64,000 nucleotides of DNA, taken from NCBI GenBank assembly GCA_964016885.1, contig OZ024764.1:26474001-26538000 (forward strand), written 5' to 3'. This DNA comes from Eledone cirrhosa (Eukaryota). This document shows positions 7,717 to 55,496 of this stretch, piece after piece (the first letter of the stretch is position 1; every line of letters begins with the position of its first letter). Position numbers and translations under genes: made by a program. Below the pieces are notes generated by a model, which was not told the origin of the DNA, did no database searches, and was given only the letters and a program-made list of their open reading frames with translations.

Positions 7717-7917
7717 CAGTATAATTATACAAATATGCATATAGATAGCAATATATATACACTAATATGTATGTACATATTTATACATATATACATATAT
7801 ATAGGGAGAGAGAGAGACACATGTATGTATATATATATACACATGCGTGTATGTATGTGTTTATGTACATTCTTCGGTATATATATATGAGTCACGGTTT
7901 ATTACACATTGGAGATA

Positions 7918-9152: not shown

Positions 9153-9495
9153 TCTGTCATGTAATGTTATGGACATATCTGCCCCTGGGGCTAATAATTG
9201 TCATGTAATGTTATGGTCATCTCTGCCCCTGTGGTTAATAATTCTGTCATGTAATGTTATGGTCATGTCTGCACCTGTGGCTAATAAATCTGTCATGTAA
9301 TGTTATGGTCATCTCTGCCCCTGTGGCTAATAATTCTGTCATGTAATGTTATGGACATCTCTGCCCCTGTGGCTAATAATTCTGACATGTAATGTTATGG
9401 ACATCTCTGCCCCGGTGGCTAATAATTCTGACATGTAATGTTATGGACATCTCTGCCCCTGTGGCTAATAATTCTGACATGTAATGTTATGGACA
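9153..9495 (+). repeat. 46-bp satellite, ~7 copies
   Basis: catgtaatgttatggacatctctgcccctgtggctaataattctga unit. Confidence 0.95.
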
Positions 9496-24385: not shown

Positions 24386-25309
24386 CAAATGAATATATAT
24401 ATATATACTACTAAAGTGTATGTAAAATTTTAAAATAAATACTTAAATTCAATTTGTATAATTACACATACAATATGTTTTGTTGTAAAACCCTAAATAA
24501 TGATTTAAGAAATGATGTCAATCTCTTTGTACAGAGAAAAACAATTTATATATATGCATTGTGTGCGCGTGTATACTCCATTTAAGACAGTGAAAAACCT
24601 AGTACCTCCTTCAAAGAATGCCAAATAGTTTATGCCTAAGGTGTAACACTAATTAAGTTACCGGTGTAGATATTTCAGTTGAACCCTGCTTCAAACATGC
24701 ATATTATTATTATATATTTTCAAACACACTTACATACATTATATTTATACACATAGAAATAATAAGTTAAAACTAAAGTATAATGATATAACAACAGTAT
24801 ATAATAGTTTTCTTCACTTTATTGAAATGCAATCGTTTTAAAGAAAAAACATGACAGTATAAGAAATATTTAATATGATAACATAATATTTCAGGTAGGA
24901 TGGTCGTTTCTCTATGATGGTGGTTTCTCTTTGAACTAATAATTGTTTCTATTTTAGGCACAAGGTCAGTAATTAACCAGTACATTACTGGTACTTTATT
25001 TTATCGACCCCGTAAGGATGAAAGGCAAAGTTGACCTCGGATCGTAAAGGGACGTAACTATGCTGGAAAGCATGGCGTCAGACCCTCTACCGATACTGCC
25101 AATTCACCATACAGTATAATTATACAAATATGCATATAGATAGCAATATATATACACTAATATGTATGTACATATTTACACATATGTACATATATATAGG
25201 GAGAGAGAGAGACACATGTATGTATATATATATACACATGCGTGTATGCATGTGTGTTTATGTACATTCTTCGGTATATATATCGGTATACACATTGGAG
25301 ACACAGAGA

Positions 25310-28300
25310 GAGAGAGTTGAAACGAGAGGTGAGAGAGTTGAAACAAGAGAGGAGATGGTTGAAACACGAGGAGAGAGAGAGAGTTGAAACGAGAGGAGAG
25401 AGAGAGAGTTGAAACGAGGAGAGAGTTGAAACAAGAGGGTGAGGGGAGAGAGGAAGAGAGAGAGAGAGAGGAAGAGAGAGAGAGGGGATGAGAGAGAGGA
25501 ATAGAGATAGAGGGGAAGAGAGAGAGGGGGAGAGAAGGGGATGAAACAACAGAGAGAGGGGAGAGAAAGAGAGAGGGGATAGAAAGAGAGAGAGAGAGAG
25601 AGAGAGAGAAAGAATTGAAACAAGAGAGAGATGAAACAAGTGAGGGATTAGAGAGAGATGAAACAAGTGAGGGATTAGAGTGTTGAAACAAGAGAGAGAG
25701 AGCGAGATGAAATGAGAGAAAGAGAGTGAGATGAAATGAGAGAGTGGGAGCGAGATGAAACGAGACAGGGAGAGCGAGATGAAATGAGAGAGTTAGAGTG
25801 AGATGAAACGAGAGAGTGAGAGCGAGATGAAACGAGAGACAGAGAGAGCGAGATGACACGAGACAGAGAGCGAGATGAAATGAGAGAGAGAGAGTGAGAG
25901 AGAGAGATGAAACGAGAGAGAGAGTGCGAGATGAAACGAGAGTGAGAGAGCGAGATGAAACGAGAGAGAGAGAGCGAGATGAAATGAGAGAGAGAGAGAA
26001 CGAGATGAAATGAGAGAGAGAGAGAGCGAGATGAAATGAGACATAGAGAGATGAAACGAGAGAGAGATGAAACGAGAAAGAGAGGAAACGAGAGAGAGGA
26101 AACGTGAGTAGAGAGCGAGATGAAACAGGAGCGAGAGAGCGAGATGAAACGAGAGGGAGAGAGAGATGAAACGAGAGCGAGAGAGAGATAGAGGGAAATG
26201 AAACGTCAGAGAGAGAGACAGATGAAACGAGGGATATAGAGATGAAACGAGAGAGAGAGATGAAACGAGAGAGAGGAAGAGAGAGATAGAACGAGAGAGA
26301 GGAAGAGAGAGATGAAACGAGAGAGAAGAAGACAGAGGTGAAACGAGAGAGAGAGCGAGATGAAACGAGAGAGAGAGCGAGATGAAACGAGAGAGAGGAA
26401 GAGAGAGAGCGAGAGATGAAACTCTGTCATGGACATATCTGACCCTGGGGCTAATAATTGTCATGTAATGTTATGGACATCTCTGCCCCTGTGGCTAATA
26501 ATTCTGTCATGTAATGTTATGGACATCTCTGCCCCTGTGGCTAATAATTCTGTCATGTAATGTTATGGAAATCTCTGCCCCTGTGGCTAATAATTCTGAC
26601 ATGTAATGTTATGGAATCTCTGCCCCTGTGGCTAATAAATCTGTCATTTGATGTTACGGACATCTCTGCCCCTGTGGCTAATAAATCTGTCATGTAATGT
26701 TATGGACATCTCTGCCCCTGTGGCTAATAATTCTGACATGTAATGTTATGGACATCTCTGCCCCTGTAGCTAATAATTCTGACATGTAATGTTATGGACA
26801 TCTCTGCCCCTGTGGCTAATAAATTCGTCATGTAATGTTATGGACATCTCTGCCCCTGTGGCTAATAAATCTGTCATGTAATGTTATGGACATCTCTGCC
26901 CCTGTGGCTAATAATTCTGACATGTAATGTTATGGACATCTCTGCCCCTGTGGCTAATAATTCTGACATGTAATGTTATGGACATCTCTGCCCCTGTGGC
27001 TAATAATTCTGAGAGAGATGAAACAAGTGAGGGATTAGAGAGAGATGAAACAAGTGAGGGATTAGAGTGTTGAAACAAGAGAGAGAGAGGAAGAGAGAGT
27101 GAGAGCGAAATCAAACGAGAGAGAGCGAGATGAAATGAGAGAGTGAGAGCGAGATGAAACGAGAGAGAGAGAGAGAGCGAGATGAAATGAGAGAGAGAGA
27201 GCGAGATGAAATGAGAGAGAGAGAGCGAGATGAAACGAGACAGAGAGAGCGGGATGAAACGAGACAGAGAGAGCGAGAGCGAGATGAAACGGGACAGAGA
27301 GAGCGAGATGAAACGAGAGAGAGAGAGAGCGAGATGAAATGAGAGAGAGAGAGAGCGAGATGAAATGAGAGAGAGAGAGCGAGGTGAAACGAGAGAGTGA
27401 GAGCGAGATGGAACGAGACAGAGAGAGCGAGATGAAACGAGAGTGGGAGAGCTAGATGAAACGAGAGAGAGAGGAAATGAGAGAGACGAAACGAGAGAGA
27501 GGAAACGAGAGTAGAGAGCGAGATGAAACAGGAGAGAGAGAGCGAGATGAAACAGGAGCGAGAGAGCGAGATGAAACGAGAGGGAGAGAGAGATGAAACG
27601 AGAGAGCGAGAGAGAGATAGAGGGAGATGAAACGACAGAGAGAGAGACAGATGAAACGAGGGAGATAGAGATGAAACGAGAGAGAGAGATGAAACGAGAG
27701 AGAGGAAGAGAGAGATGGAACGAGAGAGAGGAAGAGAGAGATGGAACGAGAGAGAGGAAGACAGAGATGAAACGAGAGAGAGAGAGAGCAAGATGAAACG
27801 AGAGAGAGAGATGAAACGAGAGAGAGGAAGAGAGAGATGGAACGAGAGAGAGGAAGAGAGAGATGGAACGAGCGAGAGGAAGACAGAGATGAAACGAGAC
27901 AGAGAGAGATCGAGATGAAACGAGAGAGAGGAAGAGAGAGAGCGCAAGATGAAACGAGAGAGAGATAGAGAGCGAGATGAAACGAGAGAGAGGAAGAGAG
28001 AGAGCGCGAGATGAAACGAGAGAGAGGAAGAGAGAGAGAGCGCGAGATGAAATGAGAGAGAGAGAGCGAGATGAAATGAGAGATTGAGAGTGAGATGAAA
28101 CGAGAGAGTGAGAGAGAGCGAGATGAAATGAGAGAGAGAGAGCGAGATGAAATGAGAGAGAGAGAGCGAGATGAAACGAGACAGAGAGAGCGGGATGAAA
28201 CGAGACAGAGAGATCGAGATGAAATGAGAGAGAGAGAGCGAGATGAAATGAGAGAGAGAGAGCGAGATGAAACGAGAGAGTGAGAGCGAGATGGAACGAG

Positions 28301-31300
28301 TCAGAGAGAGCGAAATGAAACGAGAGAGTGAGAGCTAGATGAAACGAGAGAGAGAGGAAACGAGAGAGAGAGGAAACGAGAGAGAGGAAATGAGAGAGAG
28401 GAAACGAGAGTAGAGAGCAAGATGAAACAGGAGAGAGAGAGAGCGAGATGAAACCGGAGAGAGAGAGCGAGATGAAACGAGAGGGAGGGAGAGATGAAAC
28501 GAGAGAGCGAGAGAGAGATAGAGGGAGATGAAACGAGAGAGTGATAGCTAGATGAAACGAGAGAGAGAGGAATAGAGAGATGGAACGAGAGAGAGGAAGA
28601 CAGATATGAAACGAGAGAGAGAGAGAGCGAGATGAAACGAGAGAGAGGAAGAGAGAGAGCGCGAGATGAAAGTCTGTCATGTAATGTTATGGACATATCT
28701 GCCCTTGGGGCTAATAATTGTCATGTAATGTTATGGACATATCTACCCTTGGGGCTAATAATTGTCATGTAATGTTATGTACATCTCTGCCCCTGTGGCA
28801 AATAATTCTGTCATGTAATGTTATGGACATCTCTGTCCCTGTGGCTAATAATTATGTCATGTAATGTTATGCACATCTCTGCCCCTGTGGCTAATAATTC
28901 TGTCATGTAATGTTATGGACATCTCTGCCCCTGTGGCTAATAAATTCGTCATGTAATGTTATGGACATCTCTGCCCCTGTGGCTAATAAATCTGTCATGT
29001 AATGTTATGGACATCTCTGCCCCTGTGGCTAATAATTCTGACATGTAATGTTATGGATATCTCTGCCCCTGTGGCTAATAATTCTGAGAGAGATGAAACA
29101 AGTGAGGGATAAGAGAGAGATGAAACAAATGAGGGATTAGAGTGTTGAAACAAGAGAGAGAGAGGAAGAGAGAGTGAGAGCGAGATCAAACGAGAGAGAG
29201 AGAGCGAGATGAAATGAGAGAGTGAGAGCGAATGAAACGAGAGAGAGAGAGCGAGATGAAATGAGAGAGCGAGAGCGAGATGAAACGAGAGAGAGAGAGC
29301 GAGATGAAATGAGAGAGAGAGAGCGAGATGAAACGAGAGAGTGAGAGCTAGAGGAAACGAGAGAGAGAGGAAACGAGAGAGAGGATACGAGAGAGAGGAA
29401 ACGAGAGTAGAGAGCGAGATGAAACAGGAGAGAGAGAGCGAGATGAAACAGGAGAGAGAGAGCGAGATGAAACGAGAGGGAGAGAGAGATGAAACGAGAG
29501 AGCGAGAGAGAGATAGAGGGAGATGAAACGACAGAGAGAGAGACAGATGAAACGAGGGAGATAGAGATGAAACGAGAGAGAGAGATGAAACGAGAGAGAG
29601 GAAGAGAGAGATGGAACGAGAGAGAGGAAGAGAGAGATGGAACGAGAGAGAGGAAGACAGAGATGAAACGAGAGAGAGAGAGAGCGAGATGAAACGAGAG
29701 AGAGGAAGAGAGAACGCGAGATGAAACGAGAGAGAGAGAGAGCAAGATGAAACGAGAGAGAGGAAGAGAGAGAGCGCAAGATGAAACGAGAGAGAGAGCG
29801 CGAGATGAAAGTCTGTCATGTAATGTTATGGACATATCTGCCCTTGGGGCTAATAATTGTCATGTAATGTTATGGAAATCTCTGCCTCTGTGGCTAATAA
29901 TTCTTTCATGTAATGTTATGGACATCTCTGCCCCTGTGGCTAATAATTCTGTCATGTAATGTTATGGACATCTCTGCCCCTGTGGCTAATAAATCTGTCA
30001 TGTAATGTTATGGACATCTCTGCCCCTGTGGCTAATAATTCTGACATGTAATGTTATGGACATCTCTGCCCCTGTGGCTAATAAATATGACATGTAATGT
30101 TATGGACATCTCTGCCCCTGTGGCTAATAAATCTGTCATGTAATGTTATGGACATCTCTGCCCCTGTGGCTAATAATTCTGACATGTAATGTTATGGACA
30201 TCTCTGCCCCTGTGGCTAATAATTCTGAGAGAGATGAAACAAGTGAGGGATTAGAGAGAGATGAAACAAGTGAGGGATTAGAGTGTTGAAACAAGAGAGA
30301 GAGAGAGGAAGAGAGAGTGAGAGCGAAATCAAACGAGAGAGAGCGAGATGAAATGAGAGAGTGAGAGCGAGATGAAACGAGAGAGAGAGAGAGAGCGAGA
30401 TGAAATGAGAGAGAGACAGCGAGATGAAATGAGAGAGAGAGAGCGAGATGAAACGAGACAGAGAGAGCGGGATGAAACGAGACAGAGAGAGCGAGAGCGA
30501 GATGAAACGAGACAGAGAGAGCGAGATGAAACGAGAGAGAGAGAGCGAGATGAAATGAGAGAGAGAGAGCGAGATGAAATGAGAGAGAGAGAGCGAGGTG
30601 AAACGAGAGAGTGAGAGCGAGATGGAACGAGACAGAGAGAGCGAGATGAAACGAGAGTGGGAGAGCTAGATGAAACGAGAGAGAGAGGAAACGAGAGAGA
30701 CGAAACGAGAGAGAGGAAACGAGAGTAGAGAGCGAGATGAAACAGGAGAGAGAGAGCGAGATGAAACAGGAGAGAGAGAGCGAGATGAAACGAGAGGGAG
30801 AGAGAGATGAAACGAGAGAGCGAGAGAGAGATAGAGGGAGATGAAACGACAGAGAGAGAGACAGATGAAACGAGGGAGATAGAGATGAAACGAGAGAGAG
30901 AGATGAAACGAGAGAGAGGAAGAGAGAGATGGAACGAGAGAGAGGAAGGGAGAGATGGAACGAGAGAGAGGAAGACAGAGATGAAACGAGAGAGAGAGAG
31001 AGCAAGATGAAACGAGAGAGAGAGATGAAACGAGAGAGAGGAAGAGAGAGATGGAACGAGAGAGAGGAAGAGAGAGATGGAACGAGCGAGAGGAAGACAG
31101 AGATGAAACGAGACAGAGAGAGATCGAGATGAAACGAGAGAGAGGAAGAGAGAGAGCGCAAGATGAAACGAGAGAGAGAGAGAGAGCGAGATGAAACGAG
31201 AGAGAGGAAGAGAGAGAGCGCGAGATGAAACGAGAGAGAGGAAGAGAGAGAGCGCGAGATGAAATGAGAGAGAGAGAGCGAGATGAAATGAGAGATTGAG

Positions 31301-34300
31301 AGTGAGATGAAACGAGAGAGTGAGAGAGAGCGAGATGAAATGACAGAGAGAGAGCGAGATGAAATGAGAGAGAGAGAGCGAGATGAAACGAGACAGAGAG
31401 AGCGGGATGAAACGAGACAGAGAGATCGAGATGAAATGAGAGAGAGAGAGCGAGATGAAATGAGAGAGAGAGAGCGAGATGAAACGAGAGAGTGAGAGCG
31501 AGATGGAACGAGTCAGAGAGAGCGAGATGAAACGAGAGAGTGAGAGCTAGATGAAACGAGAGAGAGAGGAAACGAGAGAGAGAGAGGAAACGAGAGAGAG
31601 GAAACGAGAGAGAGGAAACGAGAGTAGAGAGCAAGATGAAACAGGAGAGAGAGAGAGCGAGATGAAACCGGAGAGAGAGAGCGAGATGAAACGAGAGGGA
31701 GGGAGAGATGAAACGAGAGAGCGAGAGAGAGATAGAGGGAGATGAAACGAGAGAGTGATAGCTAGATGAAACGAGAGAGAGAGGAATAGAGAGATGGAAC
31801 GAGAGAGAGGAAGACAGATATGAAACGAGAGAGAGAGAGAGCGAGATGAAACGAGAGAGAGGAAGAGAGAGAGCGCGAGATGAAACGAGAGAGAGAGAGC
31901 GAGATGAAACGAGAGAGAGAGCGAGATGAAACGAGAGAGAGGAAGAGAGAGAGCGCGAGATGAAAGTCTGTCATGTAATGTTATGGACATATCTGCCCTT
32001 GGGGCTAATAATTGTCATGTAATGTTATGGACATATCTACCCTTGGGGCTAATAATTGTCATGTAATGTTATGTACATCTCTGCCCCTGTGGCAAATAAT
32101 TCTGTCATGTAATGTTATGGACACCTCTGTCCCTGTGGCTAATAATTATGTTATGTAATGTTATGGACATCTCTGCCCCTGTGGCTAATAATTCTGTCAT
32201 GTAATGTTATGGACATCTCTGCCCCTGTGGCTAATAAATTCGTCATGTAATGTTATGGACATCTCTGCCCCTGTGGCTAATAAATCTGTCATGTAATGTT
32301 TTGGACATCTCTTCCCCTGTGGCTAATAATTCTGACATGTAATGTTATGGATATCTCTGCCCCTGTGGCTAATAATTCTGAGAGAGATGAAACAAGTGAG
32401 GGATAAGAGAGAGATGAAACAAGTGAGGGATTAGAGTGTTGAAACAAGAGAGAGAGAGGAAGAGAGAGTGAGAGCGAGATCAAACGAGAGAGAGAGAGCG
32501 AGATGAAATGAGAGAGTGAGAGCGAGATGAAACGAGAGAGAGAGAGCGAGATGAAATGAGAGAGAGAGAGCGAGATGAAATGAGAGAGAGAGAGCGAGAT
32601 GAAACGAGACAGAGAGAGCGAGGTGAAACGAGAGAGAGAGAGAGCGAAATGAAACGAGACAGATTAGAGCGAGATGAAACGAGAGAGAGAGAGCAAGATG
32701 AAATGAGAGAGAGAGAGCGAGATGAAACGAGAGAGTGAGAGCTAGAGGAAACGATAGAGAGAGGAAACGAGAGAGAGAGGAAACGAGAGAGAGGATACGA
32801 GAGAGAGGAAACGAGAGTAGAGAGCGAGATGAAACAAGAGAGAGAGAGCGAGATGAAACAGGAGAGAGAGAGCGAGATGAAACGAGAGGGAGAGTGAGAT
32901 GAAACGAGAGAGCGAGAGAGAGATAGAGGGAGATGAAACGACAGAGAGAGAGACAGATGAAACGAGGGAGATAGAGATGAAACGAGAGAGAGAGATGAAA
33001 CGAGAGAGAGGAAGAGAGAGATGGAACGAGAGAGAGGAAGAGAGAGATGGAACGAGAGAGAGGAAGACAGAGATGAAACGAGAGAGAGAGAGAGCGAGAT
33101 GAAACGAGAGAGAGGAAGAGAGAGAACGCGAGATGAAACGAGAGAGAGAGCAAGATGAAACGAGAGAGAGGAAGAGAGAGAGCGCAAGATGAAACGAGAG
33201 AGAGAGAGCGCGAGATGAAAGTCTGTCATGTAATGTTATGGACATATCTGCCCTTGGGGCTAATAATTGTCATGTAATGTTATGGAAATCTCTGCCCCTG
33301 TGGCTAATAATTCTGTCATGTAATGTTATGGACATCTCTGCCCCTGTGGCTAATAATTCTGTCATGTAATGTTATGGACATCTCTGCCCCTGTGGCTAAT
33401 AAATCTGTCATGTAATGTTATGGACATCTCTGCCCCTGTGGCTAATAATTCTGACATGTAATGTTATGGACATCTCTGCCCCTGTGGCTAATAAATATGA
33501 CATGTAATGTTATGGACATCTCTGCCCCTGTGGCTAATAAATCTGTCATGTAATGTTATGGACATCTCTGCCCCTGTGGCTAATAATTCTGACATGTAAT
33601 GTTATGGACATCTCTGCCCCTGTGGCTAATAAATCTGTCATGTAATGTTATGGACATCTCTGCCCCTGTGGCTAATAATTCTGACATGTAATGTTATGGA
33701 CATCTCTGCCCCTGTGGCTAATAATTCTGTCATGTAATGTTATGGACATCTCTGCCCCTGTGGCTAATAAATTCGTCATGTAATGTTATGGACATCTCTG
33801 CCCCTGTGGCTAATAAATCTGTCATGTAATGTTATGGACATCTCTGCCCCTGTGGCTAATAATTCTGACATGTAATGTTATGGATATCTCTGCCCCTGTG
33901 GCTAATAATTCTGAGAGAGATGAAACAAGTGAGGGATAAGAGAGAGATGAAACAAATGAGGGATTAGAGTGTTGAAACAAGAGAGAGAGAGGAAGAGAGA
34001 GTGAGAGCGAGATCAAATGAGAGAGAGAGAGCGAGATGAAATGAGAGAGTGAGAGCGAGATGAAACGAGAGAGAGAGAGCGAGATGAAATGAGAGATCGA
34101 GAGCGAGATGAAATGAGAGAGAGAGAGCGAGATGAAACGAGACAGAGAGAGCGAGATGAAACGAGAGAGAGAGAGAGCGAAATGAAACGAGACAGATTAG
34201 AGCGAGATGAAACGAGAGAGAGAGAGCGAGATGAAATGAGAGAGAGAGAGCGAGATGAAACGAGAGAGTGAGAGCTAGAGGAAACGAGAGAGAGAGGAAA

Positions 34301-37300
34301 CGAGAGAGAGGATACGAGAGAGAGGAAACGAGAGTAGAGAGCGAGATGAAACAGGAGAGAGAGAGCGAGATGAAACAGGAGAGAGAGCGAGATGAAACGA
34401 GAGGGAGAGAGAGATGAAACGAGAGAGCGAGAGAGAGATAGAGGGAGATGAAACGACAGAGAGAGAGACAGATGAAACGAGGGAGATAGAGATGAAACGA
34501 GAGAGAGAGATGAAACGAGAGAGAGGAAGAGAGAGATGGAACGAGAGAGAGGAAGAGAGAGATGGAACGAGAGAGAGGAAGACAGAGATGAAACGAGAGA
34601 GAGAGAGAGCGAGATGAAACGAGAGAGAGGAAGAGAGAACGCGAGATGAAACGAGAGAGAGAGAGAGCAAGATGAAACGAGAGAGAGGAAGAGAGAGAGC
34701 GCAAGATGAAACGAGAGAGAGAGCGCGAGATGAAAGTCTGTCATGTAATGTTATGGACATATCTGCCCTTGGGGCTAATAATTGTCATGTAATGTTATGG
34801 AAATCTCTGCCTCTGTGGCTAATAATTCTTTCATGTAATGTTATGGACATCTCTGCCCCTGTGGCTAATAATTCTGTCATGTAATGTTATGGACATCTCT
34901 GCCCCTGTGGCTAATAAATCTGTCATGTAATGTTATGGACATCTCTGCCCCTGTGGCTAATAATTCTGACATGTAATGTTATGGACATCTCTGCCCCTGT
35001 GGCTAATAAATATGACATGTAATGTTATGGACATCTCTGCCCCTGTGGCTAATAAATCTGTCATGTAATGTTATGGACATCTCTGCCCCTGTGGCTAATA
35101 ATTCTGACATGTAATGTTATGGACATCTCTGCCCCTGTGGCTAATAATTCTGAGAGAGATGAAACAAGTGAGGGATTAGAGAGAGATGAAACAAGTGAGG
35201 GATTAGCGTGTTGAAACAAGAGAGAGAGAGAGGAAGAGAGAGTGAGAGTGAAATCAAACGAGAGAGAGCGAGATGAAATGAGAGAGTGAGAGCGAGATGA
35301 AACGAGAGAGAGAGTGAGAGCGAGATGAAACGAGAGAGAGAGAGAGAGCGAGATGAAACGAGACAGAGAGAGCGAGATGAAACGAGAGAGAGAGAGCGAG
35401 ATGAAATGAGAGAGAGAGAGCGAGATGAAATGAGAGAGAGAGAGCGAGATGAAACGAGAGAGTGAGAGCGAGATGGAACGAGACAGAGAGAGCGAGATGA
35501 AACGAGAGTGGGAGAGCTAGATGAAACGAGAGAGAGAGGAAACGAGAGAGACGAAACGAGAGAGAGGAAACGAGAGTAGAGAGCGAGATGAAACAGGAGA
35601 GAGAGAGCGAGATGAAACAGGAGAGAGAGAGCGAGATGAAACGAGAGGGAGAGAGAGATGAAACGAGAGAGCGAGAGAGAGATAGAGGGAGATGAAACGA
35701 CAGAGAGAGAGACAGATGAAACGAGGGAGATAGAGATGAAACGAGAGAGAGAGATGAAACGAGAGAGAGGAAGAGAGAGATGGAACGAGAGAGAGGAAGG
35801 GAGAGATGGAACGAGAGAGAGGAAGACAGAGATGAAACGAGAGAGAGAGAGAGCAAGATGAAACGAGAGAGAGAGATGAAACGAGAGAGAGGAAGAGAGA
35901 GATGGAACGAGAGAGAGGAAGAGAGAGATGGAACGAGCGAGAGGAAGACAGAGATGAAACGAGACAGAGAGAGATCGAGATGAAACGAGAGAGAGGAAGA
36001 GAGAGAGCGCAAGATGAAACGAGAGAGAGAGAGAGAGCGAGATGAAACGAGAGAGAGGAAGAGAGAGAGCGCGAGATGAAACGAGAGAGAGGGAGAGAGA
36101 GAGCGCGAGATGAAATGAGAGAGAGAGAGCGAGATGAAATGAGAGATTGAGAGTGAGATGAAACGAGAGAGTGAGAGAGAGCGAGATGAAATGACAGAGA
36201 GAGAGCGAGATGAAATGAGAGAGAGAGAGCGAGATGAAACGAGACAGAGAGAGCGGGATGAAACGAGACAGAGAGATCGAGATGAAATGAGAGAGAGAGA
36301 GCGAGATGAAATGAGAGAGAGAGAGCGAGATGAAACGAGAGAGTGAGAGCGAGATGGAACGAGTCAGAGAGAGCGAGATGAAACGAGAGAGTGAGAGCTA
36401 GATGAAACGAGAGAGAGAGGAAACGAGAGAGAGGAAACGAGAGAGAGGAAACGAGAGTAGAGAGCAAGATGAAACAGGAGAGAGAGAGAGCGAGATGAAA
36501 CCGGAGAGAGAGAGCGAGATGAAACGAGAGGGAGGGAGAGATGAAACGAGAGAGCGAGAGAGAGATAGAGGGAGATGAAACGAGAGAGTGATAGCTAGAT
36601 GAAACGAGAGAGAGAGGAATAGAGAGATGGAACGAGAGAGAGGAAGACAGATATGAAACGAGAGAGAGAGAGAGCGAGATGAAACGAGAGAGAGGAAGAG
36701 AGCGCGAGATGAAACGAGAGAGAGAGAGCGAGATGAAACGAGAGAGAGAGCGAGATGAAACGAGAGAGAGGAAGAGAGAGAGCGCGAGATGAAAGTCTGT
36801 CATGTAATGTTATGGACATATCTGCCCTTGGGGCTAATAATTGTCATGTAATGTTATGGACATATCTACCCTTGGGGCTAATAATTGTCATGTAATGTTA
36901 TGTACATCTCTGCCCCTGTGGCAAATAATTCTGTCATGTAATGTTATGGACACCTCTGTCCCTGTGGCTAATAATTATGTCATGTAATGTTATGGACATC
37001 TCTGCCCCTGTGGCTAATAATTCTGTCATGTAATGTTATGGACATCTCTGCCCCTGTGGCTAATAAATTCGTCATGTAATGTTATGGACATCTCTGCCCC
37101 TGTGGCTAATAAATCTGTCATGTAATGTTTTGGACATCTCTTCCCCTGTGGCTAATAATTCTGACATGTAATGTTATGGATATCTCTGCCCCTGTGGCTA
37201 ATAATTCTGAGAGAGATGAAACAAGTGAGGGATAAGAGAGAGATGAAACAAGTGAGGGATTAGAGTGTTGAAACAAGAGAGAGAGAGGAAGAGAGAGTGA

Positions 37301-38558
37301 GAGCGAGATCAAACGAGAGAGAGAGAGCGAGATGAAATGAGAGAGTGAGAGCGAGATGAAACGAGAGAGAGAGAGCGAGATGAAATGAGAGAGAGAGAGC
37401 GAGATGAAATGAGAGAGAGAGAGCGAGATGAAACGAGACAGAGAGAGCGAGGTGAAACGAGAGAGAGAGAGAGCGAAATGAAACGAGACAGATTAGAGCG
37501 AGATGAAACGAGAGAGAGAGAGCAAGATGAAATGAGAGAGAGAGAGCGAGATGAAACGAGAGAGTGAGAGCTAGAGGAAACGATAGAGAGAGGAAACGAG
37601 AGAGAGAGGAAACGAGAGAGAGGATACGAGAGAGAGGAAACGAGAGTAGAGAGCGAGATGAAACAGGAGAGAGAGAGCGAGATGAAACAGGAGAGAGAGA
37701 GCGAGATGAAACGAGAGGGAGAGTGAGATGAAACGAGAGAGCGAGAGAGAGATAGAGGGAGATGAAACGACAGAGAGAGAGACAGATGAAACGAGGGAGA
37801 TAGAGATGAAACGAGAGTGAGTGATGAAACGAGAGAGAGGAAGAGAGAGATGGAACGAGAGAGAGGAAGAGAGAGATGGAACGAGAGAGAGGAAGACAGA
37901 GATGAAACGAGAGAGAGAGAGAGCGAGATGAAACGAGAGAGAGGAAGAGAGAGAACGCGAGATGAAACGAGAGAGAGAGCAAGATGAAACGAGAGAGAGG
38001 AAGAGAGATAGCGCAAGATGAAACGAGAGAGAGAGAGCGCGAGATGGAAGTCTGTCATGTAATGTTATGGACATATCTGCCCTTGGGGCTAATAATTGTC
38101 ATGTAATGTTATGGAAATCTCTGCCCCTGTGGCTAATAATTCTGTCATGTAATGTTATGGACATCTCTGCCCCTGTGGCTAATAATTCTGTCATGTAATG
38201 TTATGGACATCTCTGCCCCTGTGGCTAATAAATCTGTCATGTAATGTTATGGACATCTCTGCCCCTGTGGCTAATAATTCTGACATGTAATGTTATGGAC
38301 ATCTCTGCCCCTGTGGCTAATAAATATGACATGTAATGTTATGGACATCTCTGCCCCTGTGGCTAATAAATCTGTCATGTAATGTTATGGACATCTCTGC
38401 CCCTGTGGCTAATAATTCTGACATGTAATGTTATGGACATCTCTGCCCCTGTGGCTAATAAATCTGTCATGTAATGTTATGGACATCTCTGCCCCTGTGG
38501 CTAATAATTCTGACATGTAATGTTATGGACATCTCTGCCCCTGTGGCTAATAATTCTG
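25310..38558 (+). repeat. Left arm: alternating GA-minisatellite and 46-bp satellite blocks (8 GA blocks)
   Basis: GA blocks start at ~25310, 27010, 29086, 30228, 32381, 33913, 35152, 37210, each followed by a 46-bp array. Confidence 0.95.
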
Positions 38559-41500
38559 ATTTATTAGCCACAGGGGCAGAGATGTCCATAACATTACATG
38601 ACAGAATTATTAGCCACAGGGGCAGAGATTTCCATAACATTACATGTCAGAATTATTAGCCACAGGGGCAGAGATGTCCATAACATTACATGTCAGAATT
38701 ATTAGCCACAGGGGCAGAGATGTCCATAACATTACATGACAGAATTATTAGCCACAGGGGCAGAGATGACCATAACATTACATGACAATTATTAGCCACA
38801 GGGGCAGATATGTCAATAACATTACATGACAGAGTTTCATCTTGCGCTCTCTCTCTCTCGTTTCATCTCGCTCTCCCTCTCTCTCGTTTCATCTCTGTCT
38901 TCCTCTCTCTCGTTTCATCTCGCTCTCTCTCTCTCTCGTTTCATCTCTGTCTTCCTCTCTCTCGTTCCATCTCTCTCTTCCTCTCTCTCTTCCTCTCTTT
39001 CGTTTCATCTCTATCTCCCTTCTTTCATCTGTCTCTCTCTCTGTCGTTTCATCTCGCGCTCTCTCTCTCTCGTTTCATCTTGCGCTCTCTCTCTCTCGTT
39101 TCGTCTTGCTCTCTCTCTCTCTCGTTTCATCTCTGTCTTCCTCTCTCTCGTTCCATCTCTCTATTCCTCTCTCTCGTTCCATCTCTCTCATCCTCTCTCT
39201 CGTTTCATCTCTATCTCCCTCCTTTCATCTGTCTCTCTCTCTGTCGTTTCATCTCGCGCTCTCTCTCTCTCGTTTCATCTTGCGCTCTCTCTCTCTCGTT
39301 TCATCTCGTTCTCTCTCTCGTTTCATCTCTGTCTTCCTCTCTCTCGTTCCATCTCTCTCTTCCTCTCTCTCGTTCCATCTCTCTCTTCCTCTCTCTCGTT
39401 TCATCTCTATCTCCCTTCTTTCATCTGTCTCGCTCTCTGTCGTTTCATCTCGCGCTCTCTCTCTCTCGTTTCATGTCGCGCTCTCTCTCTCTCGTTTCAT
39501 CTCGCTCTCTCTCTCTCGTTTCATCTCTGTCTTCCTCTCTCTCGTGCCATCTCTCTCTTCCTCTCTCTCTTCCTCTCTCTCGTTTCATCTCTATCTCCCT
39601 TGTTTCATCTCTCTCTCGCTCTCTCGTTTCATCTCTCTCTCCCTCTCGTTTCATCTCGCTCTCTCTCTCCTGTTTCATCTCGCTCTCTCTCTCTCGTTTC
39701 ATCTCTGTCTTCCTCTCTCTCGTTCCATCTCTGTCTTCCTCTCTCTCGTTCCATCTCTCGCTTCCTCTCTCTCGTTTCATCTCGCTCTCCCTCGTTTCAT
39801 CTCTCTCTCGCTCTCTCGTTTCATCTCTCTCTCCCTCTCATTTCATCTCGCTCTCTCTCTCCTGTTTCATCTGGCTCTCTCTCTCTCCTGTTTCATCTCG
39901 CTCTCTACTCTCGTTTCCTCTCTCTCTCTTGTTTCATCTCTCTCTCCCTCCCGTTTCATCTCGCTCTCTCTCTCTCATTTCATCTCGCTCTCTCTCTCTC
40001 GTTTCATCTCGCTCTCCCTCTCTCGTTTCATCCCGCTCTCACTCTCTCATTTCTTCTCGCTCTCTCTCTCTTGTTTCAACACTCTAATCCCTCACTTGTT
40101 TACTATCTCTCAGAATTATTAGCCACAGGGGCAGAGATGACCATAACATTACATGTCAGAATTATTAGCCACAAGGGCAGAGATGTCCATAACATTACAT
40201 GACAGAATTATTAGCCACAGGGGCAGAGATGACCATAACATTACATGACAATTATTAGCCACAGGGGCAGATATGTCAATAACATTACATGACAGAGTTT
40301 CATCTCGCGCTCTCTCTCTCTCGTTTCATCTTGCGCTCTCTCTCTCTCTCGTTTCATCTTGCTCTCTCTCTCGTTTCATCTCTGTCTTCCTCTCTCTCGT
40401 TCCATCTCTCTCTTCCTCTCTCTCGTTCCATCTCTCTCATCCTCTCTCTCGTTTCATCTCTATCTCCCTCCTTTCATCTGTCACTCTCTCTGTCGTTTCA
40501 TCTCGCGCTCTCTCTCTCTCGTTTCATCTCGCGCTCTCTCTGTCTCGTTTCATCTCGCTCTCTCTCTCTCTCGTTTCATCTCTGTCTTCCTCTCTCTCGT
40601 TCCATCTCTCTCTTCCTCTCTCTCGTTCCATCTCTCTCTTCCTCTCTCTCGTTTCATCTCTATCTCCCTCGTTTCATCTCTCTCTCGCTCTCTCGTTTCA
40701 TCTCTCTCTCCCGCTCGTTTCTTTTCGCTCTCTCTCCCCTGTTTCATCTCGCTCTCTACTCTCGTTTCCTCTCTCTCATTTCCTCTCTCTCTCGTTTCCT
40801 CTCTGTCTCGTTTCATCTCGCTCTCTCTCTTTCTCGTTTGATCTCGCTCTCACTCTCTCGTTTCATCTCGCTTCTCTCACTCTCTTGTTTCATCTCGCTC
40901 TCTCTCTCTCTTCCTCTCTCTCTCTTGTTTCAACACTCTAATCCCTCACTTGTTTTATCTCTCTCTAATCCCTCACTTGGTTCATCTCTCTCAGAATTAT
41001 TAGCCACAGGGGCAGAGATGTCCATAACATTACATGTCAGAATTATTAGCCACAGGGCAGAGATGTCCATAACATTACATGTCAGAATTATTAGCCACTG
41101 GGGCAGAGATGTCCATAACATTACATGTCAGAATTATTAGCCACAGGGGTAGAGATGTCCATAACATTACGTGTCAGAATTATTAGCCACAGGGGCAGAG
41201 ATGTCCATAACATTACATGACAGAATTATTAGCCACAGGGGCAGTGATGTCCATAACATTACATGACAATTAGTAGCCCCAAGGGCAGATATGTCCATAA
41301 CATTACATGACAGAGTTCCATCTCGCGCTCTCTCTCTTCCTCTCTCTCGTTTCATCTCGCTCTCTCTCTCTCTCGTTTCATCTCGCTCTCTCGTTTCATC
41401 TCGCTCTCTCGTTTCATCTCGCTCTCTCTCGTTTCATCTCTGTCTTCCTCTCTCTCGTTCCATCTCTCTCTTCCTCTCTCTCGTTTCATTTCTATCTCCC

Positions 41501-44500
41501 TCCTTTCATCTGTCTCTCTCTCTGTCGTTTCATCTCGCGCTCTCTCTCTCTCGATTCATCTCGCGCTCTCTCTCTCTCGTTTCATCTCGCTCTCTCTCTC
41601 TCTCGTTTCATCTCTGTCTTCCTCTCTCGCGTTCCATCTCTCTCTTCCTCCCTCTCTTCCTCTCTCTCGTTTCATCTCTATCTCCCTCGTTTCATCTCTC
41701 TCTCCCTCTCGTTTCATCTCGCTCTCTCTCTCCTGTTTCATCTCGCTCTCTACTCTCGTTTCCTCTCTCTCGTTTCCTCTCTGTCTCGTTCCATCCCGCT
41801 CTCTCTCTCTCTCATTACATCTCGCTCTCTCTGTCTCGTTTCATCTCGCTCTCTCTCTCTCTCGTTTCATCTCGCTCTCACTCTCTCGTTTCATCTCGCG
41901 TTTCATCTCACTCTCCCTGTCTCATTTCACCTCGCTCTCTCTCTCTCTTCCTCTCTCTCTCTTGTTTCAACACTCTAATCCCTCACTTGTTTTATCTCTC
42001 TCTAATCCCTCACTTGTTTCATCTCTCTCAGAATTATTAGCCACAGGGGCAGAGATGTCCATAACATAACATGTCAGAATTATTAGCCACAGGGCAGAGA
42101 TGTCCATAACATTACATGTCAGAGTTATTAGCCACAGGGGCAGAGATGTCCATAACATTACATGTCAGAATTATTAGCCACGGGGGCGGAGACGTCCATA
42201 ACATTACATGACAGAATTATTAGCCACAGGGGCAGAGATGACCATAACATTACATGACAATTATTAGCCACAGGGGCAGATATATCAATAACATTACATG
42301 ATAGAGTTTCATCTCGCGCTCTCTCTCTCTCGTTTCATCTTGCTATCTCTCTCTCGCGTTTCATCTCTGTCTTCCTCTCTCTCGTTCCATCTCTCTCTTC
42401 CTCTCTCTCGTTCCATCTCTCTCATCCTCTCTCTCGTTTCATCTCTATCTCCCTCCTTTCATCTGTCTCGCTCTGTCGTTTCATCTCGTGCTCTCTCTCT
42501 CTCGTTTCATCTCGCGCTCTCTCTGTCTCGTTTCATCTCGCTCTCTCTCTCTCTCGTTTCATCTCTGTCTTCCTCTCTCACGTTCCATCTCTCTCTTCCT
42601 CTCTCTCGTTCCATCTCTCTCTTCCTCTCTCTCGTTTCATCTCTATCTCCCTCGTTTCATCTCTCTCTCGCTCTCTCGTTTCATCTCTCTCTCCCTCTCG
42701 TTTCATCTCGCTCTCTACTCTCGTTTCCTCTCTCTCGTTTCCTCTCTGTCTCGTTCCATCCCGCTCTCTCTCTCTCACATTACATCTCGCTCTCTCTGTC
42801 TCGTTTCATCTCGCTCTCTCTCTCTCTCGTTTCATCTCGCTCTCACTCTCTCGTTTCATCTCGCTTCTCTCACTATTGCGTTTCATCTCGCTCTCCCTGT
42901 CTCATTTCATCTCGCTCTCTCTCTCTCTCTTCCTCTCTCTCTCTTGTTTCAACACTCTAATCCCTCACTTGTTTTATCTCTCTCTAATCCCTCCCTTGTT
43001 TCATCTCTCTCAGAATTATTAGCCACTGGGGCAGAGATGTCCATAACATTACATGTCAGAGTTATTAGCCACAGGGGCAGAGATGTCCATAACATTACAT
43101 GACAGAGTTTCATCTCGCGCTCTCTCTCTCTCGTTTCATCTCGCGCTCTCTCTCTTCCTCTCTCTCGTTTCATCTCGCTCTCTCTCTCTCTCGTTTCACC
43201 TCTGTCTTTCATCTCTCTCTTCCTCTCTCTCGTTCCATCTCTCTCTTCCTCTCTCTCGTTTCATCTCTATCTCCCTCCTTTCATCTGTCTCTCTCTCTGT
43301 CGTTTCATCTCGCGCTCTCTCTCTCTCGTTTCATCTCGCGCTCTCTCTCTCTCGTTTCATCTCGCTCTCTCTCTCTCTCTCGTTACATCTCTGTCTTCCT
43401 CTCTCTCGTTCCATCTCTCTCTTCCTCTCTCTCTTACTCTCTCTCGTTTCATCTCTATCTCCCTCGTTTCATCTCTCTCTCCCTCTCGTTTCATCTCGCT
43501 CTCTCTCTCCTGTTTCATCTCGCTCTCTACTCTCGTTTCCTCTCTCTCGTTTCCTCTCTGTCTCGTTCCATCCCGCTCTCTCTCTCTCTCATTACATCTC
43601 GCTCTCTCTGTCTCGTTTCATCTCGCTCTCTCTCTCTCTCGTTTCATCTCGCTCTCACTCTCTCGTTTCATCTCGCGTTTCATCTCACTCTCCCTGTCTC
43701 ATTTCATCTCGCTCTCTCTCTCTCTTCCTCTCTCTCTCTTGTTTCAACACTCACTTGTTTTATCTCTCTCTAATCCCTCACTTGTTTCATCTCTCTCAGA
43801 ATTATTAGCCACAGGGGCAGAGATGTCCATAACATTACATGTCAGAATTATTAGCCACAGGGCAGAGATGTCCATAACATTACATGTCAGAATTATTAGC
43901 CACAGGGGCAGAGATGTCCATAACATTACATGTCAGAATTATTAGCCACAGGGGCGGAGACGTCCATAACATTACATGACAGAATTATTAGCCACAGGGG
44001 CAGAGATGACCATAACATTACATGACAATTATTAGCCACAGGGGCAGATATATCAATAACATTACATGATAGAGTTTCATCTCGCGCTCTCTCTCTCTCG
44101 TTTCATCTTGCGCTCTCTCTCTCTCGTTTCATCTTGCTCTCTCTCTCTCTCGTTTCATCTCTGTATTCCTCTCTCTCGTTCCATCTCTCTATTCCTCTCT
44201 CTCGTTCCATCTCTCTCATCCTCTCTCTCGTTTTATCTGTATCTCCCTCCTTCAATCTGTCTCTCTCTCTGTCGTTTCATCTCGTGCTCTCTCTGTCTCG
44301 TTTCATCTCGCGCTCTCTCTGTCTCGTTTCATCTCGCTCTCTCTCTCTCTCTCGTTTCATCTCTGTCTTCCTCTCTCTCGTTCCATCTCTCTCTTCCTCT
44401 TTCTCGTTCCATCTCTCTCTTCCTCTCTCTCGTTTCATCTCTATCTCCCTCGTTTCATCTCTCTCTCGCTCTCTCGTTTCATCTCTCTCTCCCTCTCGTT

Positions 44501-47500
44501 TCATCTCGCTCTCTACTCTCGTTTCCTCTCTCTCGTTTCCTCTCTGTCTCGTTCCATCCCGCTCTCTCTCTCTCTCATTACATCTCGCTCTCTCTGTCTC
44601 GTTTCATCTCGCTCTCTCTCGCTCTCGTTTCATCTCGCTCTCACTCTCTCGTTTCATCTCGCTTCTCTCACTATTGCATTTCATCTCGCTCTCCCTGTCT
44701 CATTTCATCTCGCTCTCTCTCTCTCTTCCTCTCTCTTGTTTCAACACCCTAATCCCTCACTTGTTTTATCTCTCTCTAATCCCTCACTTGTTTCATCTCT
44801 CTCAGAATTATTAGCCACAGGGGCAGAGATGTCCATAACATTACATGTCAGAGTTATTAGCCACAGGGGCAGAGATGTCCATAACGTTACATGACAATTA
44901 TTAGCCCCAAGGGCAGATATGTCCATAACATTACATGACAGAGTTTCATCTCGCGCTCTCTCTCTCTCGTTTCATCTCGCGCTCTCTCTCTTCCTCTCTC
45001 TCGTTTCATCTCGCTCTCTCTCTCTCTCGTTTCACCTCTGTCTTCCATCTCTCTCTTCCTCTCTCTCGTTCCATCTCACTCTTCCTCTCTCTCATTTCAT
45101 CTCTCTCTCTCGTTTCATCTCTATCTCTCTCTCTCGTTTCATCTGTCTCTCTCTCTGTCGTTTCATCTCCCTCTATCTCTCTCTCCCTCTCGTTTCATCT
45201 CGCTCTCTCTCTCCTGTTTCATCTCGCTCTCTCTCTCTCCTGTTTCATCTCGCTCTCTACTCTCGTTTCCTCTCTCTCTCCCTCCTGTTTCATCTCGCTC
45301 TCTCTCTCTCGTTTCATCTCGCTCTCACTCTCTCGTTTCATCTCGCTCTCTCTCTGTCTCGTTTCATCTCGCTCTCTCTCTCTCATTTCATCTCGCTCTC
45401 TCTCTCTCGTTTCATCTCGCTCTCACTCTCTCGTTTCATCTCGCTCTCACTCTCTCGTTTCATCTCGCTCTCCCTGTCTCGTTTCATCTCGCTCACACTC
45501 TCTCATTTCATCTCGCTCTCTCTCTCTTCTTTCAACACTCTAATCCCTCACTTGTTTCATCTCTCTCAGAATTATTAGCCACAGGGGCAGAGATGACCAT
45601 AACATTACATGTCAGAATTATTAGCCACAGGGGCAGAGATGTCCATAACATTACATGTCAGAATCATTAGCCACAGGGGCAGAGATGTCCATAACATTAC
45701 ATGACAGAATTATTAGCCACAGGGGCAGAGATGACCATAACATTACATGACAATTATTAGCCACAGGGGCAGATATGTCAATAACATTACATGACAGAGT
45801 TTCATCTCGCGCTCTCTCTCTCTCTCGTTTCATCTTGCGCTCTCTCTCTCTCGTTTCCTCTCGCTCTCTCTCTCTCTCGTTTCATCTCTGTCTTCCTCTC
45901 TCTCGTTCCATCTCTCTCTTCCTCTCTCTCGTTCCATCTCTCTCTTCCTCTCTCTCGTTTCATCTGTCTCTCTCTCTGTCGTTTCATCTCGCGCTCTCTC
46001 TCTCTCGTTTCATCTCGCGCTCTCTCTCTCTCATTTCATCTCGCTCTCTCTCTCTCTCGTTTCACCTCTGTCTTCCTCTCTCTCTTCCTCTCTCTCGTTC
46101 CATCTCTCTCTTCCTCTCTCTCGTTTCATCTCTATCTCCCTCGTTTCATCTCTCTCTCGCTCTCTCGTTTCATCTCTCTCTCCCTCTCGTTTCATCTCGC
46201 TCTCTCTTTCTGTTTCATCTCGCTCTCTACTCTCGTCTCCTCTCTGTCGTTTCCTCTCTGTCTCGTTTCATCTCGCTCTCCCTGTCTCATTTCATCTCGC
46301 TCTCTCTCTCTCTCTTCCTCTCTGTCTCTTGTTTCAACACTCTAATCCCTCACTTGTTTTATCTCTCTCTAATCCCTCACTTGTTTCATCTCTCTTAGAA
46401 TTATTAGCCACAGGGGCAGAGATGTCCATAACATTACATGTCAGAATTATTAGCCACAGGGCAGAGATGTCCATAACATTACATGTCAGAATTATTAGCC
46501 ACAGGGGCAGAGATGTCCATAACATTACATGACAGAGTTTCATCTCGCTCTCTCTCTCTCTCGTTTCATCAGTGTCTTCCTCTCTCTCGTTCCATCTCTC
46601 TCTTGCTCTCTCTCGTTCCATCTCTATCTTCATCTCTCTCGTTTCATCTCTATCTCCCTCCTTTCATCTGTCTCTCTCTCTGTCGTTTCATCTCGCGCTC
46701 TCTCTCTCTCGTTTCATCTCTATCTCCCTCGTTTCATCTGTCTCTCGCTCTCTCGTTTCATCTCTCTCTCCCTCTCGTTTCATCTCGCTCTCTACTCTCG
46801 TTTCCTCTCTCTCGCGTTCCATCCCGCTCTCTCTCTCTCTCATTACATCTCGCTCTCTCTGTCTCGTTTCATCTCGCTCTCTCTCTCTCTCGTTTCATCT
46901 CGCTCTCACTCTCTCGTTTCATCTCGCTTCTCTCACTCTCGTGTTTCATCTCGCTCTCCCTGTCTCATTTCATCTCGCTCTCTCTCTCTCTTCCTCTCTC
47001 TCTCTTGTTTCAACACTCTAATCCCTCACTTGTTTTATCTCTCTCTAATCCCTCACTTGTTTCATCTCTCTCAGAATTATTAGCCACAGGGGCAGAGATG
47101 TCCATAACATTACATGTCAGAATTATTAGCCACAGGGCAGAGATGTCCATAACATTACATGTCAGAATTATTAGCCACAGGGGCAGAGATGTCCATAACA
47201 TTACATGACAGAATTATTAGCCACAGGGGCAGAGATGTCCATAACATTACATGTCAGAATTATTAGACACAGGGCAGAGATGTCCATAACATTACATGTC
47301 AGAATTATTAGCCACAGGGGCAGAGATGTCCATAACATTACATGACAGAATTATTAGCCACAGGGGCAGAGATGTCCATAACATTACATGACAATTATTA
47401 GCCCCAAGGGCAGATATGTCCATAACATTACATGACAGAGTTTCATCTGGCGCTCTCTCTCTTCCTCTCTCTCGTTTCATCTCTGTCTTCCTCTCTCTCG

Positions 47501-48354
47501 TTCCATCTCTCTCTTCCTCTCGCTCGTTCCATCTCTCTCTTCCTCTCTCTCGTTTCATCTCTATCTCCCTCCTTTCATCTGTCTCTCTCTCTGTCGTTTC
47601 ATCTCGCGCTCTCTCTCTCTCGTTTCATCTCGCGCTCTCTCTCTCTCGTTTCATCTCTCTCTCTCTCTCGTTTCATCTCTGTCTTCCTCTCTCTCGTTCC
47701 ATCTCTCTCTTCCTCTCTCTCGTTTCATCTCTATCTCCCTCGTTTCATCTCTCTCTCCCTCTCGTTTCATCTCGCTCTCTCTCTCCTGTTTCATCTCGCT
47801 CTCTACTCTCGTTTCCTCACTCTCGTTTCCTCTCTCTCTCGTTTCCTCTCTGTCTCGTTCCATCCCGCTCTCTCTCTCTCTCATTACATCTCGCTCTCTC
47901 TGTCTCGTTTCATCTCGCTCTCTCTCTCTCTCGTTTCATCTCGCTCTCACTCTCTCGTTTCATCTCGCTTCTCTCACTCTCGCGTTTCATCTCGCTCTCC
48001 CTGTCTCATTTCATCTCGCTCTCTCTCTCTCTTCCTCTCTCTCTCTTGTTTCAACACTCTAATCCCTCACTTGTTTTATCTCTCTCTAATCCCCCACGTG
48101 TTTCATCTCTCTCAGAATTATTAGCCACAGGGGCAGAGATGTCCATAACATTACATGTCAGAATTATTAGCCACAGGGCAGAGATGTCCATAACATTACA
48201 TGTCAGAATTATTAACCACAGGGGCAGAGATGTCCATAACATAACATGACAGAATTATTAGCCACAGGGGCAGAGATGTCCATAACATTACATGACAGAA
48301 TTATTAGCCACAGGGGCAGATATGTCCATAACATTACATGACAGAGTTTCATCT
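38559..48354 (-). repeat. Right arm: the same module in reverse complement (10 TC blocks)
   Basis: ttattagccacaggggcagagatgtccataacattacatg arrays alternating with gtttcatctc(TC)n blocks. Confidence 0.95.
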
Positions 48355-48393
48355 GGTTGGAGTAATAACAGTCTTGTTTATGTATATACACAC

Positions 48394-48425
<32 letters not shown>

Positions 48426-48529
48426 GTTTGTTCTTGTATTTCTATAGAAAAGGTAAAGAAAAGAAGAATGCTCTATGTATTGTACAGAGCTATTTAATTA
48501 CATAATAAACAACAGAATATAATTATTCC

Positions 48530-53667: not shown

Positions 53668-53701
<34 letters not shown>

Positions 53702-55436: not shown

Positions 55437-55496
<60 letters not shown>

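What the first reader, a model, noticed from the sequence alone, without database searches (positions are those of the whole stretch)
25310..48354. ~23-kb inverted satellite domain with a near-zero spacer whose arms evolved separately
Seen: orientation flips inside a 46-bp array at ...ggctaataa-ttctgat-ttattagcc... (7-nt loop, 38554-38560). The arms are not mirror copies. Amplified left blocks join the satellite as gatgaaaGtctgtc, are 0.7-1.7 kb long and are separated by long arrays. Right blocks use the ancestral gatgaaaCtctgtc, are mostly 0.55-0.75 kb, carry private variants (cttgttttatctc, 45-bp unit cacagggcag) and have short arrays. Inference: two independently amplified arrays fused tail to tail, or an old fold-back followed by arm-specific turnover; this is satellite formation inside a Helitron.
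Basis: partly seen in the sequence, partly recalled or inferred. Interest (0 to 1): 0.7.

Follow-up and report, generated by a model that had tools for sequence, protein, structure and literature searches.

The report
Inverted block in young composite satellite
A young repeat array inside a dead jumping-gene cluster reverses direction abruptly, and its two halves are related but not mirror copies, most likely because the far 10 kilobases of one head-to-tail array were flipped; such flips are already known in fly, beetle and human satellite DNA.

Summary
The flip is real. A composite repeat (GA-rich block plus a 46-bp array) runs forward for 7 units (27011-38557) and reversed for 9.8 kb (38558-48354), turning at a 7-nt loop. 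It is not a 23-kb palindrome: in-register symmetry ends after about 224 bp. The arms are not independent: all 17 units share one derived satellite-to-GA junction. The key addition is a second orientation switch at 48353, so the right arm is an inverted segment between forward Helitron-derived flanks. Its two ends share a 3-nt inverted microhomology, and undoing the flip in silico gives near-canonical joins, so inversion of one head-to-tail array is likeliest (0.5), then inverted insertion of a sister array (0.3). The central junction appears in short reads of two samples; the distal junction and long-range phasing are unconfirmed. The repeat sits in a 2.5-kb insertion that splits a dead Helitron gene; it is not Helitron sequence. 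Orientation switches are known in Tribolium, Drosophila and human satellites, and this scan noted a flip-flop satellite elsewhere in this genome. New member of a known kind.

The parts
23640..24385 (+). 5' part of a degenerate Helitron RepHel gene (upstream unit), forward
   Evidence: tblastn of homologue P0001, residues 154-340
24385..27010 (+). Upstream unit's own copy of the 2.5-kb insertion: AT-rich head, GA block (about 25305-26422), 46-bp array (26420-27012) whose 3' monomers look left-arm type
   Evidence: compared with the complete copy at 7013-9513
27011..38557 (+). Left arm: 7 composite units (starts 27011, 29086, 30227, 32380, 33913, 35152, 37209), long/short alternation, recent higher-order copy of about 4.8-4.9 kb
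   Evidence: units 3+4 vs 6+7 differ at 12 of 3408 aligned columns
38514..38600 (.). Central hairpin: 40-bp perfect arms around a 7-nt loop (38554-38560); 2-nt overlap GA at 38558-38559
   Evidence: a 201-nt stretch folds at -105.1 kcal/mol as single-stranded DNA; junction-type reads in two runs
38558..48354 (-). Right arm, the inverted segment: 11 short 46-bp arrays and 10 GA blocks, more diverged among themselves
44943..45567 (-). Ancestor-like right-arm GA block
   Evidence: its unit carries 21 of 150 right-private 14-mers against 64-123 in the other nine; nearest neighbour is a left unit
48351..48354 (.). Second orientation switch; 2-nt overlap CT; ATC at 48351-48353 is the reverse complement of GAT at 38558-38560
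   Evidence: not confirmed in reads
48353..50878 (+). Downstream forward Helitron remnant without the insertion (empty site 49286-49288), internally deleted, with stops and frameshifts
   Evidence: P0001 residues 303-512 align across the empty site; PF21530 E 5e-14; PF14214 E 3e-6, 27.9 bits against cut-off 28.9
7013..9513 (+). Complete unamplified reference copy of the insertion (2501 bp), flanked by TCA on both sides; a second complete copy ends at 62112

Best explanation
A GA-block-plus-46-bp-array module inside a dead Helitron repeat was copied into a composite satellite, and the far 9.8 kb of that array was likely flipped in place by repair of two breaks joined through 2-3 matching bases, after which the oppositely oriented halves likely stopped exchanging units and only the left half expanded recently. 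Shown: the module, its single founding junction, two orientation switches between forward flanks, the short overlaps, the arm-private variants, the low divergence of left-arm copies. Inferred: a head-to-tail ancestor; that one GA block next to the left break was lost in the event; end joining or template switching at microhomology; that inversion blocks unequal exchange between the arms; the order of inversion and arm divergence. No function is implied.
For: Flanks on both sides are forward Helitron sequence, so two switches are needed; they lie at 38558 and 48353. The two ends share a 3-nt inverted microhomology, GAT/ATC. The left arm stops at the register where all 17 arrays pass into a GA block, and the far end of the right arm starts at a GA-block word; random ends rebuild such a join in 223 of 200,000 draws. 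Undoing the flip also joins a normal monomer variant to the Helitron flank through 3 shared bases. Both arms share the founding junction (17 of 17) and 45 derived 14-mers. The two monomers nearest the centre on the right carry variants found in single-copy inserts and not elsewhere in the right arm, as expected for the terminal array of a tandem amplification. Left copies differ by 0.1-0.7% between matching units, closest right pairs by 1.3-2.3%, Helitron flanks by 1-2%.
Against: The register test was designed after seeing the junctions, and breaks may favour GA-block edges under any model. The model needs two extra joins in the ancestor. The last left array could instead be a truncated copy of the 15-monomer array at 33219, which would make the register a coincidence. 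A predicted gradient (far right units closest to the left arm) appeared with alignment distances (rho -0.70, p 0.025, n 10) but in only 1 of 10 k-mer measures, and 0 of 10 without the central unit. No un-inverted join was listed in 4 runs at either junction, though the tables were cut. The two central right monomers could also come from conversion by the left arm.
Confidence: 0.5

Rival explanations
1. Inverted insertion: a sister array of the same composite family, which had diverged in another copy of this repeat cluster, was copied or ligated in backwards during repair of a break, replacing the 3' half of the upstream unit.
For: Each observed junction has its own 2-nt overlap. The arms have 175 and 150 private 14-mers. 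The sequence expected after the upstream unit's array (3' Helitron half, tail, head repeats) is missing. The family is multi-copy: satellite and founding junction are in other samples.
Against: Does not explain the 3-nt inverted microhomology or why both ends sit in registers that rebuild a near-canonical join (223 of 200,000).
Confidence: 0.3
2. Old fold-back: the array copied itself backwards from the hairpin centre, switched back to the flank at 48353, and the left arm was later replaced by expansion of one unit.
For: Near-zero spacer and 40-bp perfect arms; variants common in left arrays in the first two right monomers; left arm is recent enough to have erased mirror pairs.
Against: Mismatches at offsets 41, 70, 87 and 92; no left position gives a mirror of the second right monomer; mirror partner ranks first for only 2 of 7 units; 2-nt overlap is little to prime a fold-back.
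Confidence: 0.12
3. Assembly mis-join of two arrays, at the centre or at 48353.
For: No contig piece spans either junction in runs X4 or X1 (centre) or X4 (distal); the distal junction is unconfirmed; assemblers have mis-oriented satellite centres (PMC5411766, passages).
Against: No N in the window. In raw reads 47 of 1,120 (X9) and 33 of 1,526 (X10) laid reads are counted at 38558 away from their ends, and 17 X9 reads start at the AATT at 38552 behind mixed partners. A fold-back read artefact would give mirror arms.
Confidence: 0.08

Closest known systems
Tribolium macro-dyad symmetries (T. madens TmSat1/TmSat2; PMC13081366, abstract, outline and passages read)
   Same: Kilobase subarrays of one satellite in opposite orientation, a few to tens of kb, mostly two subarrays, hairpin predicted at the turn; satellite-microsatellite conjunctions also described there (TmSat4 with AC runs).
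   Different: There the inversion sites are thousands of conserved copies (2044, 3486, 6428) in megabase putative pericentromeric arrays; here one site in the window, a 21-kb array, arm-specific subfamilies, a defined second breakpoint, and no chromosomal location known.
Inversions in human satellite arrays (bioRxiv 10.1101/2021.07.12.452052, passages read)
   Same: Segment of an array inverted between same-strand flanks; the chr1 alpha-satellite inversion is polymorphic (11 of 24 haplotypes); over 200 breakpoints in HSat3B5 and beta satellite.
   Different: Megabase scale and centromeric there; here 9.8 kb in a young composite repeat, with both breakpoints readable to the base.
Drosophila Responder locus (PMC5411766, passages read)
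   Same: Satellite flips orientation within a locus; small satellite clusters nested in transposons nested in transposons; duplication plus inversion invoked.
   Different: Rsp flips at a G5 element fragment; here the flip is monomer to monomer with a 7-nt loop.
Helentron-associated HINE elements with central tandem repeats (Crassostrea gigas Cg_HINE; PMC7492417, passages read)
   Same: An inserted element with a microsatellite-like block followed by a short tandem array, in a likely mollusc genome (organism recalled, not tested).
   Different: No sub-terminal inverted repeats or 3' palindrome module found at the insertion's ends; only 17 bp follow the array; 3-bp direct repeat at the ends.

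Membership tests
Satellite array with internal inversion | Tandem units change strand within one family | tested here: met
Satellite array with internal inversion | Two breakpoints between same-strand flanks | tested here: met
   38558 and 48353; forward Helitron hits on both sides
Satellite array with internal inversion | Un-inverted state exists or existed | tested here: inconclusive
   In-silico undoing gives near-canonical joins; no such join listed in reads (tables cut)
Tribolium-type macro-dyad | Multi-kb opposite subarrays of similar length | tested here: met
   11,547 and 9,797 bp
Tribolium-type macro-dyad | Inversion site conserved in many copies | tested here: inconclusive
   1 copy per 161 monomer cores in the window; 47 of 1,120 and 33 of 1,526 reads in enzyme-cut libraries, no spanning contig in X4 or X1; no genome held
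Tribolium-type macro-dyad | Pericentromeric, megabase-scale location | not testable with these tools
   needs FISH, CENP-A or a chromosome-level map
Fold-back palindrome | Arms are collinear mirror copies | tested here: not met
   symmetry ends after about 224 bp; mirror partner first for 2 of 7
Helitron (host sequence) | Rep plus PIF1 helicase coding remnants | tested here: met
   265 homologues of 904 candidates, best E 6e-122, all 120 listed carry PF14214; PF21530; PF14214 just under its cut-off
Helitron (host sequence) | 5' TC and 3' hairpin-CTRR termini (recalled) | not tested
   termini not mapped
Helitron-derived satellite | Repeat unit is part of the Helitron itself | tested here: not met
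   no RepHel hit within 24394-48559; insertion splits the gene; empty copy present
HINE / DINE-1-like element (the 2.5-kb insertion) | Sub-terminal inverted repeats and 3' palindrome | tested here: not met
   only two 6-mers, both inside the satellite, match between first 150 and last 60 bp; end hairpins about -5 kcal/mol
HINE / DINE-1-like element (the 2.5-kb insertion) | Microsatellite upstream of central tandem repeats | tested here: met
   GA block precedes the 46-bp array
HINE / DINE-1-like element (the 2.5-kb insertion) | TT target, no target duplication | tested here: inconclusive
   TCA on both sides may be a duplication or microhomology; a T run lies at the site on the minus strand

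The most novel reading that the evidence does not exclude
The hairpin junction is itself a multi-copy, conserved feature: the 21-kb two-armed domain is being amplified across a Helitron-derived heterochromatic cluster, giving a Tribolium-type macro-dyad outside beetles caught at birth, with founder element, empty site, both breakpoints and arm-specific subfamilies all readable in one 64-kb window. Junction-type reads are 2-4% of satellite reads against 0.6% expected from the window, which this reading predicts but library bias can also give.
Probability: 0.15. Interest if true: 0.55.

Novelty: new member of a known kind. Interest (0 to 1): 0.3.

Why it matters
As an ordinary case it is a clean, base-resolved record of how a satellite is born from a nested insertion and how an inversion can split one array into separately evolving halves; the junctions are scoreable markers for population data. 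It also shows that a near-zero spacer can persist when the arms match in register for only about 0.2 kb. It would matter more if the junction proved multi-copy and centromeric, since the T. madens paper states that macro-dyads are so far documented only in Tribolium. Nothing here points to a function.

Tried and rejected
No whole genome is held, so copy number and other flips could not be counted. Perfect-palindrome artefact rejected: arms diverge. Gradient test along the right arm: inconclusive. The satellite-only tree did not group the right arm as one clade (5 units nearer the left arm, 5 apart); whole-unit and GA-only trees grouped 9 of 10; trees had no support values. Distal junction in reads: only 2-14 reads deep on the Helitron side, no spanning piece or joint listed. 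A loose end in X11 at 48350 (13 reads) does not continue as the flank and was set aside as a likely chimera. Summed contig depths were not used as copy number. Long ORFs in the GA blocks are low-complexity artefacts. Organism not identified: the named Octopus hit is only 60% identical; 'octopus' rests on my recall of a SINE-like stretch and on an AI note. Searches for a description of this satellite in cephalopods listed none; most subscription papers are not searched. Earlier findings near this place: none; by sequence: one unrelated phage hit sharing 3 of 180 words. Supplements were not opened.

Full report
Observation. The window has no N. A 46-bp satellite occurs in 21 arrays: 9 forward between 26420 and 38557, 11 reversed between 38560 and 48348, wait-free single arrays at 9150 and 61162 being part of the forward set outside the domain (one search lists 9150, eight arrays from 26420 to 38048, eleven reversed, and 61162). 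Arrays alternate with GA-rich blocks built of words ending in GATGAAAC (86% purine in the block measured). The strand switch is at 38554-38560, a 7-nt loop. Walking outward, mismatches fall at offsets 41, 70, 87, 92, 184 and 209, and symmetry is lost from 225. The central 201 nt fold at -105.1 kcal/mol, which is expected for facing satellite monomers and does not show extrusion in vivo.

Arm histories. I cut 17 composite units (7 left, 10 right). Only 2 of 19,448 possible splits separate them as well as left versus right; there are 175 left-private and 150 right-private collapsed 14-mers. Neighbour-joining on whole units and on GA blocks put 7 of 7 left units together and 9 of 10 right units together; the unit at 44943-45567 is ancestor-like. 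The satellite-only tree split the right arm in two; no support values were computed. Mean substitutions per 100 aligned columns: left-left 2.4, right-right 3.4, left-right 4.0, either arm to single-copy inserts 5.1; these are rough because the blocks are low-complexity. Matching left units differ by 0.1-0.7% (units 3+4 vs 6+7: 12 of 3408 columns), less than the Helitron flanks (1-2%), so the left higher-order expansion of about 4.8-4.9 kb is the youngest event. Mirror partners rank first for only 2 of 7 right units. Yet the arms have one origin: all 17 units begin at the same satellite-to-GA junction, absent from the single-copy inserts, and share 45 14-mers absent from them. The upstream insert has a shortened first monomer shared with the copy at 61162 and not with either arm, so the left arm was probably joined to it by exchange within the satellite (inference).

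Setting. The window is a tandem cluster of degenerate Helitron-derived units at 97-98% identity. Read with X at stops, 49196-50500 finds 265 homologues among 904 candidates (best E 6e-122), all 120 listed carrying PF14214; the helicase end matches PF21530; PF14214 itself scored 27.9 against a cut-off of 28.9. Homologue P0001 aligns up to residue 340 at 7020 and resumes at residue 341 at 9516, while residues 303-512 align straight through 49184-49783. So the GA block and satellite lie in a 2501-bp secondary insertion (7013-9513), flanked by TCA, present at 3 of 4 sites and absent at 49286-49288. It resembles a HINE in having a microsatellite before a tandem array (PMC7492417, passages) but lacks the terminal modules; its class is open.

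Two breakpoints. Helitron sequence is forward on both sides of the domain, so the right arm is an inverted segment, 38558-48354 (9,797 bp; left arm 11,547 bp). The central junction has a 2-nt overlap (GA), the distal one a 2-nt overlap (CT) with a site just upstream of the Helitron gene. GAT at 38558-38560 is the reverse complement of ATC at 48351-48353. Undoing the flip there in silico gives a satellite-to-satellite join that looks like the founding junction with its GA block collapsed, and a join of a normal monomer variant to the flank through 3 shared bases. Random ends rebuild the first kind of join in 223 of 200,000 draws; this test is post hoc, and breaks may prefer block edges anyway (polypurine tracts are fragile: my own knowledge, not tested). 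A similarity gradient predicted by the inversion was seen by alignment (rho -0.70, p 0.025) but in 1 of 10 k-mer measures only.

Reads. Eleven runs were listed; five were laid. At the centre the two RAD libraries behave as if cut at AATT: 476 and 701 molecules end at 38555. At 38558, 47 of 1,120 (X9) and 33 of 1,526 (X10) laid reads are counted away from their ends; that these span the loop is my reading of the table. Seventeen X9 reads begin at the AATT at 38552 behind mixed partner sequence (agreement 0.40), which ordinary monomers cannot give. The evidence covers only 6 left-arm letters before the overlap and cannot tie the reads to this locus. Contigs of X4 and X1 show no spanning piece; X1 does hold the founding satellite-to-GA junction. 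At the distal junction depth on the Helitron side is 2-14 reads, and X4 shows only the two canonical neighbours; it is unconfirmed. The junction share (2-4%) exceeds 1 in 161 monomer cores, but another variant that is single in the window reaches 3-6% of reads, so this may be library bias.

Mechanism. Most likely (0.5): tandem duplication of GA block plus array through one junction, growth and diversification by unequal exchange, inversion of the distal 9.8 kb at microhomology, and recent expansion of the left arm only. Rivals: inverted insertion of a sister array (0.3), old fold-back with turnover (0.12), mis-join (0.08). Long, similar arms with short spacers are the risk factors for palindrome breakage (PMC7999016, passages); the short in-register match here would limit that risk (inference).

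Comparison. Opposite multi-kb subarrays with conserved turning points are described in Tribolium (PMC13081366, abstract, outline, passages), single and multiple inversions in human satellites (10.1101/2021.07.12.452052, passages), and a flip plus nested satellite-in-transposon clusters at Drosophila Rsp (PMC5411766, passages). Searches were seen as listings only and showed no description of this repeat. An unchecked note from this scan describes a 30-bp flip-flop satellite elsewhere in this genome. Verdict: real, well resolved, a new member of a known kind; interest 0.3.

Noticed in passing
window 1355-2066, 3936-4647, 18553-19354, 21255-22055: 89-bp tandem repeat whose unit holds two short palindromes; arrays match each other on both strands and interrupt the Helitron gene after the zinc-finger-like part in the 2.6-2.7 kb head repeats.
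   Followed up: no
window 14915-15929; also 53315-54360 and 54444-56188: Imperfect fold-back of about 1 kb (91% identity) and related inverted copies: the cluster holds other inverted rearrangements.
   Followed up: partly
window 5544 and six paralogous sites; 9500-9515 on the minus strand: The word GAGATGAAACAAGAT lies in the head repeats behind a hAT-like end (label recalled) and, reversed, at the right end of the insertion; it is also where the amplified unit starts. May mark the termini of an unrecognised element.
   Followed up: partly
window 49286-49288 vs 7013-9513, 24385, 59081: Filled and empty alleles of the same insertion coexist among Helitron copies that are 98% identical.
   Followed up: yes
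window 11682-11939 and 51457-52099: 55/41-bp tandem repeat that differs in copy number between two units.
   Followed up: no
window 6753-6899 and 7582-7712: Two related short interspersed stretches (84-87% alike) that I recall as octopus SINEs; the first interrupts the Helitron gene.
   Followed up: no
window 33219-33914: The 15-monomer array looks recombinant: first 10 monomers as in the array at 38048, last 5 as in the arrays at 28670, 31964 and 36793, a direct trace of unequal exchange.
   Followed up: partly
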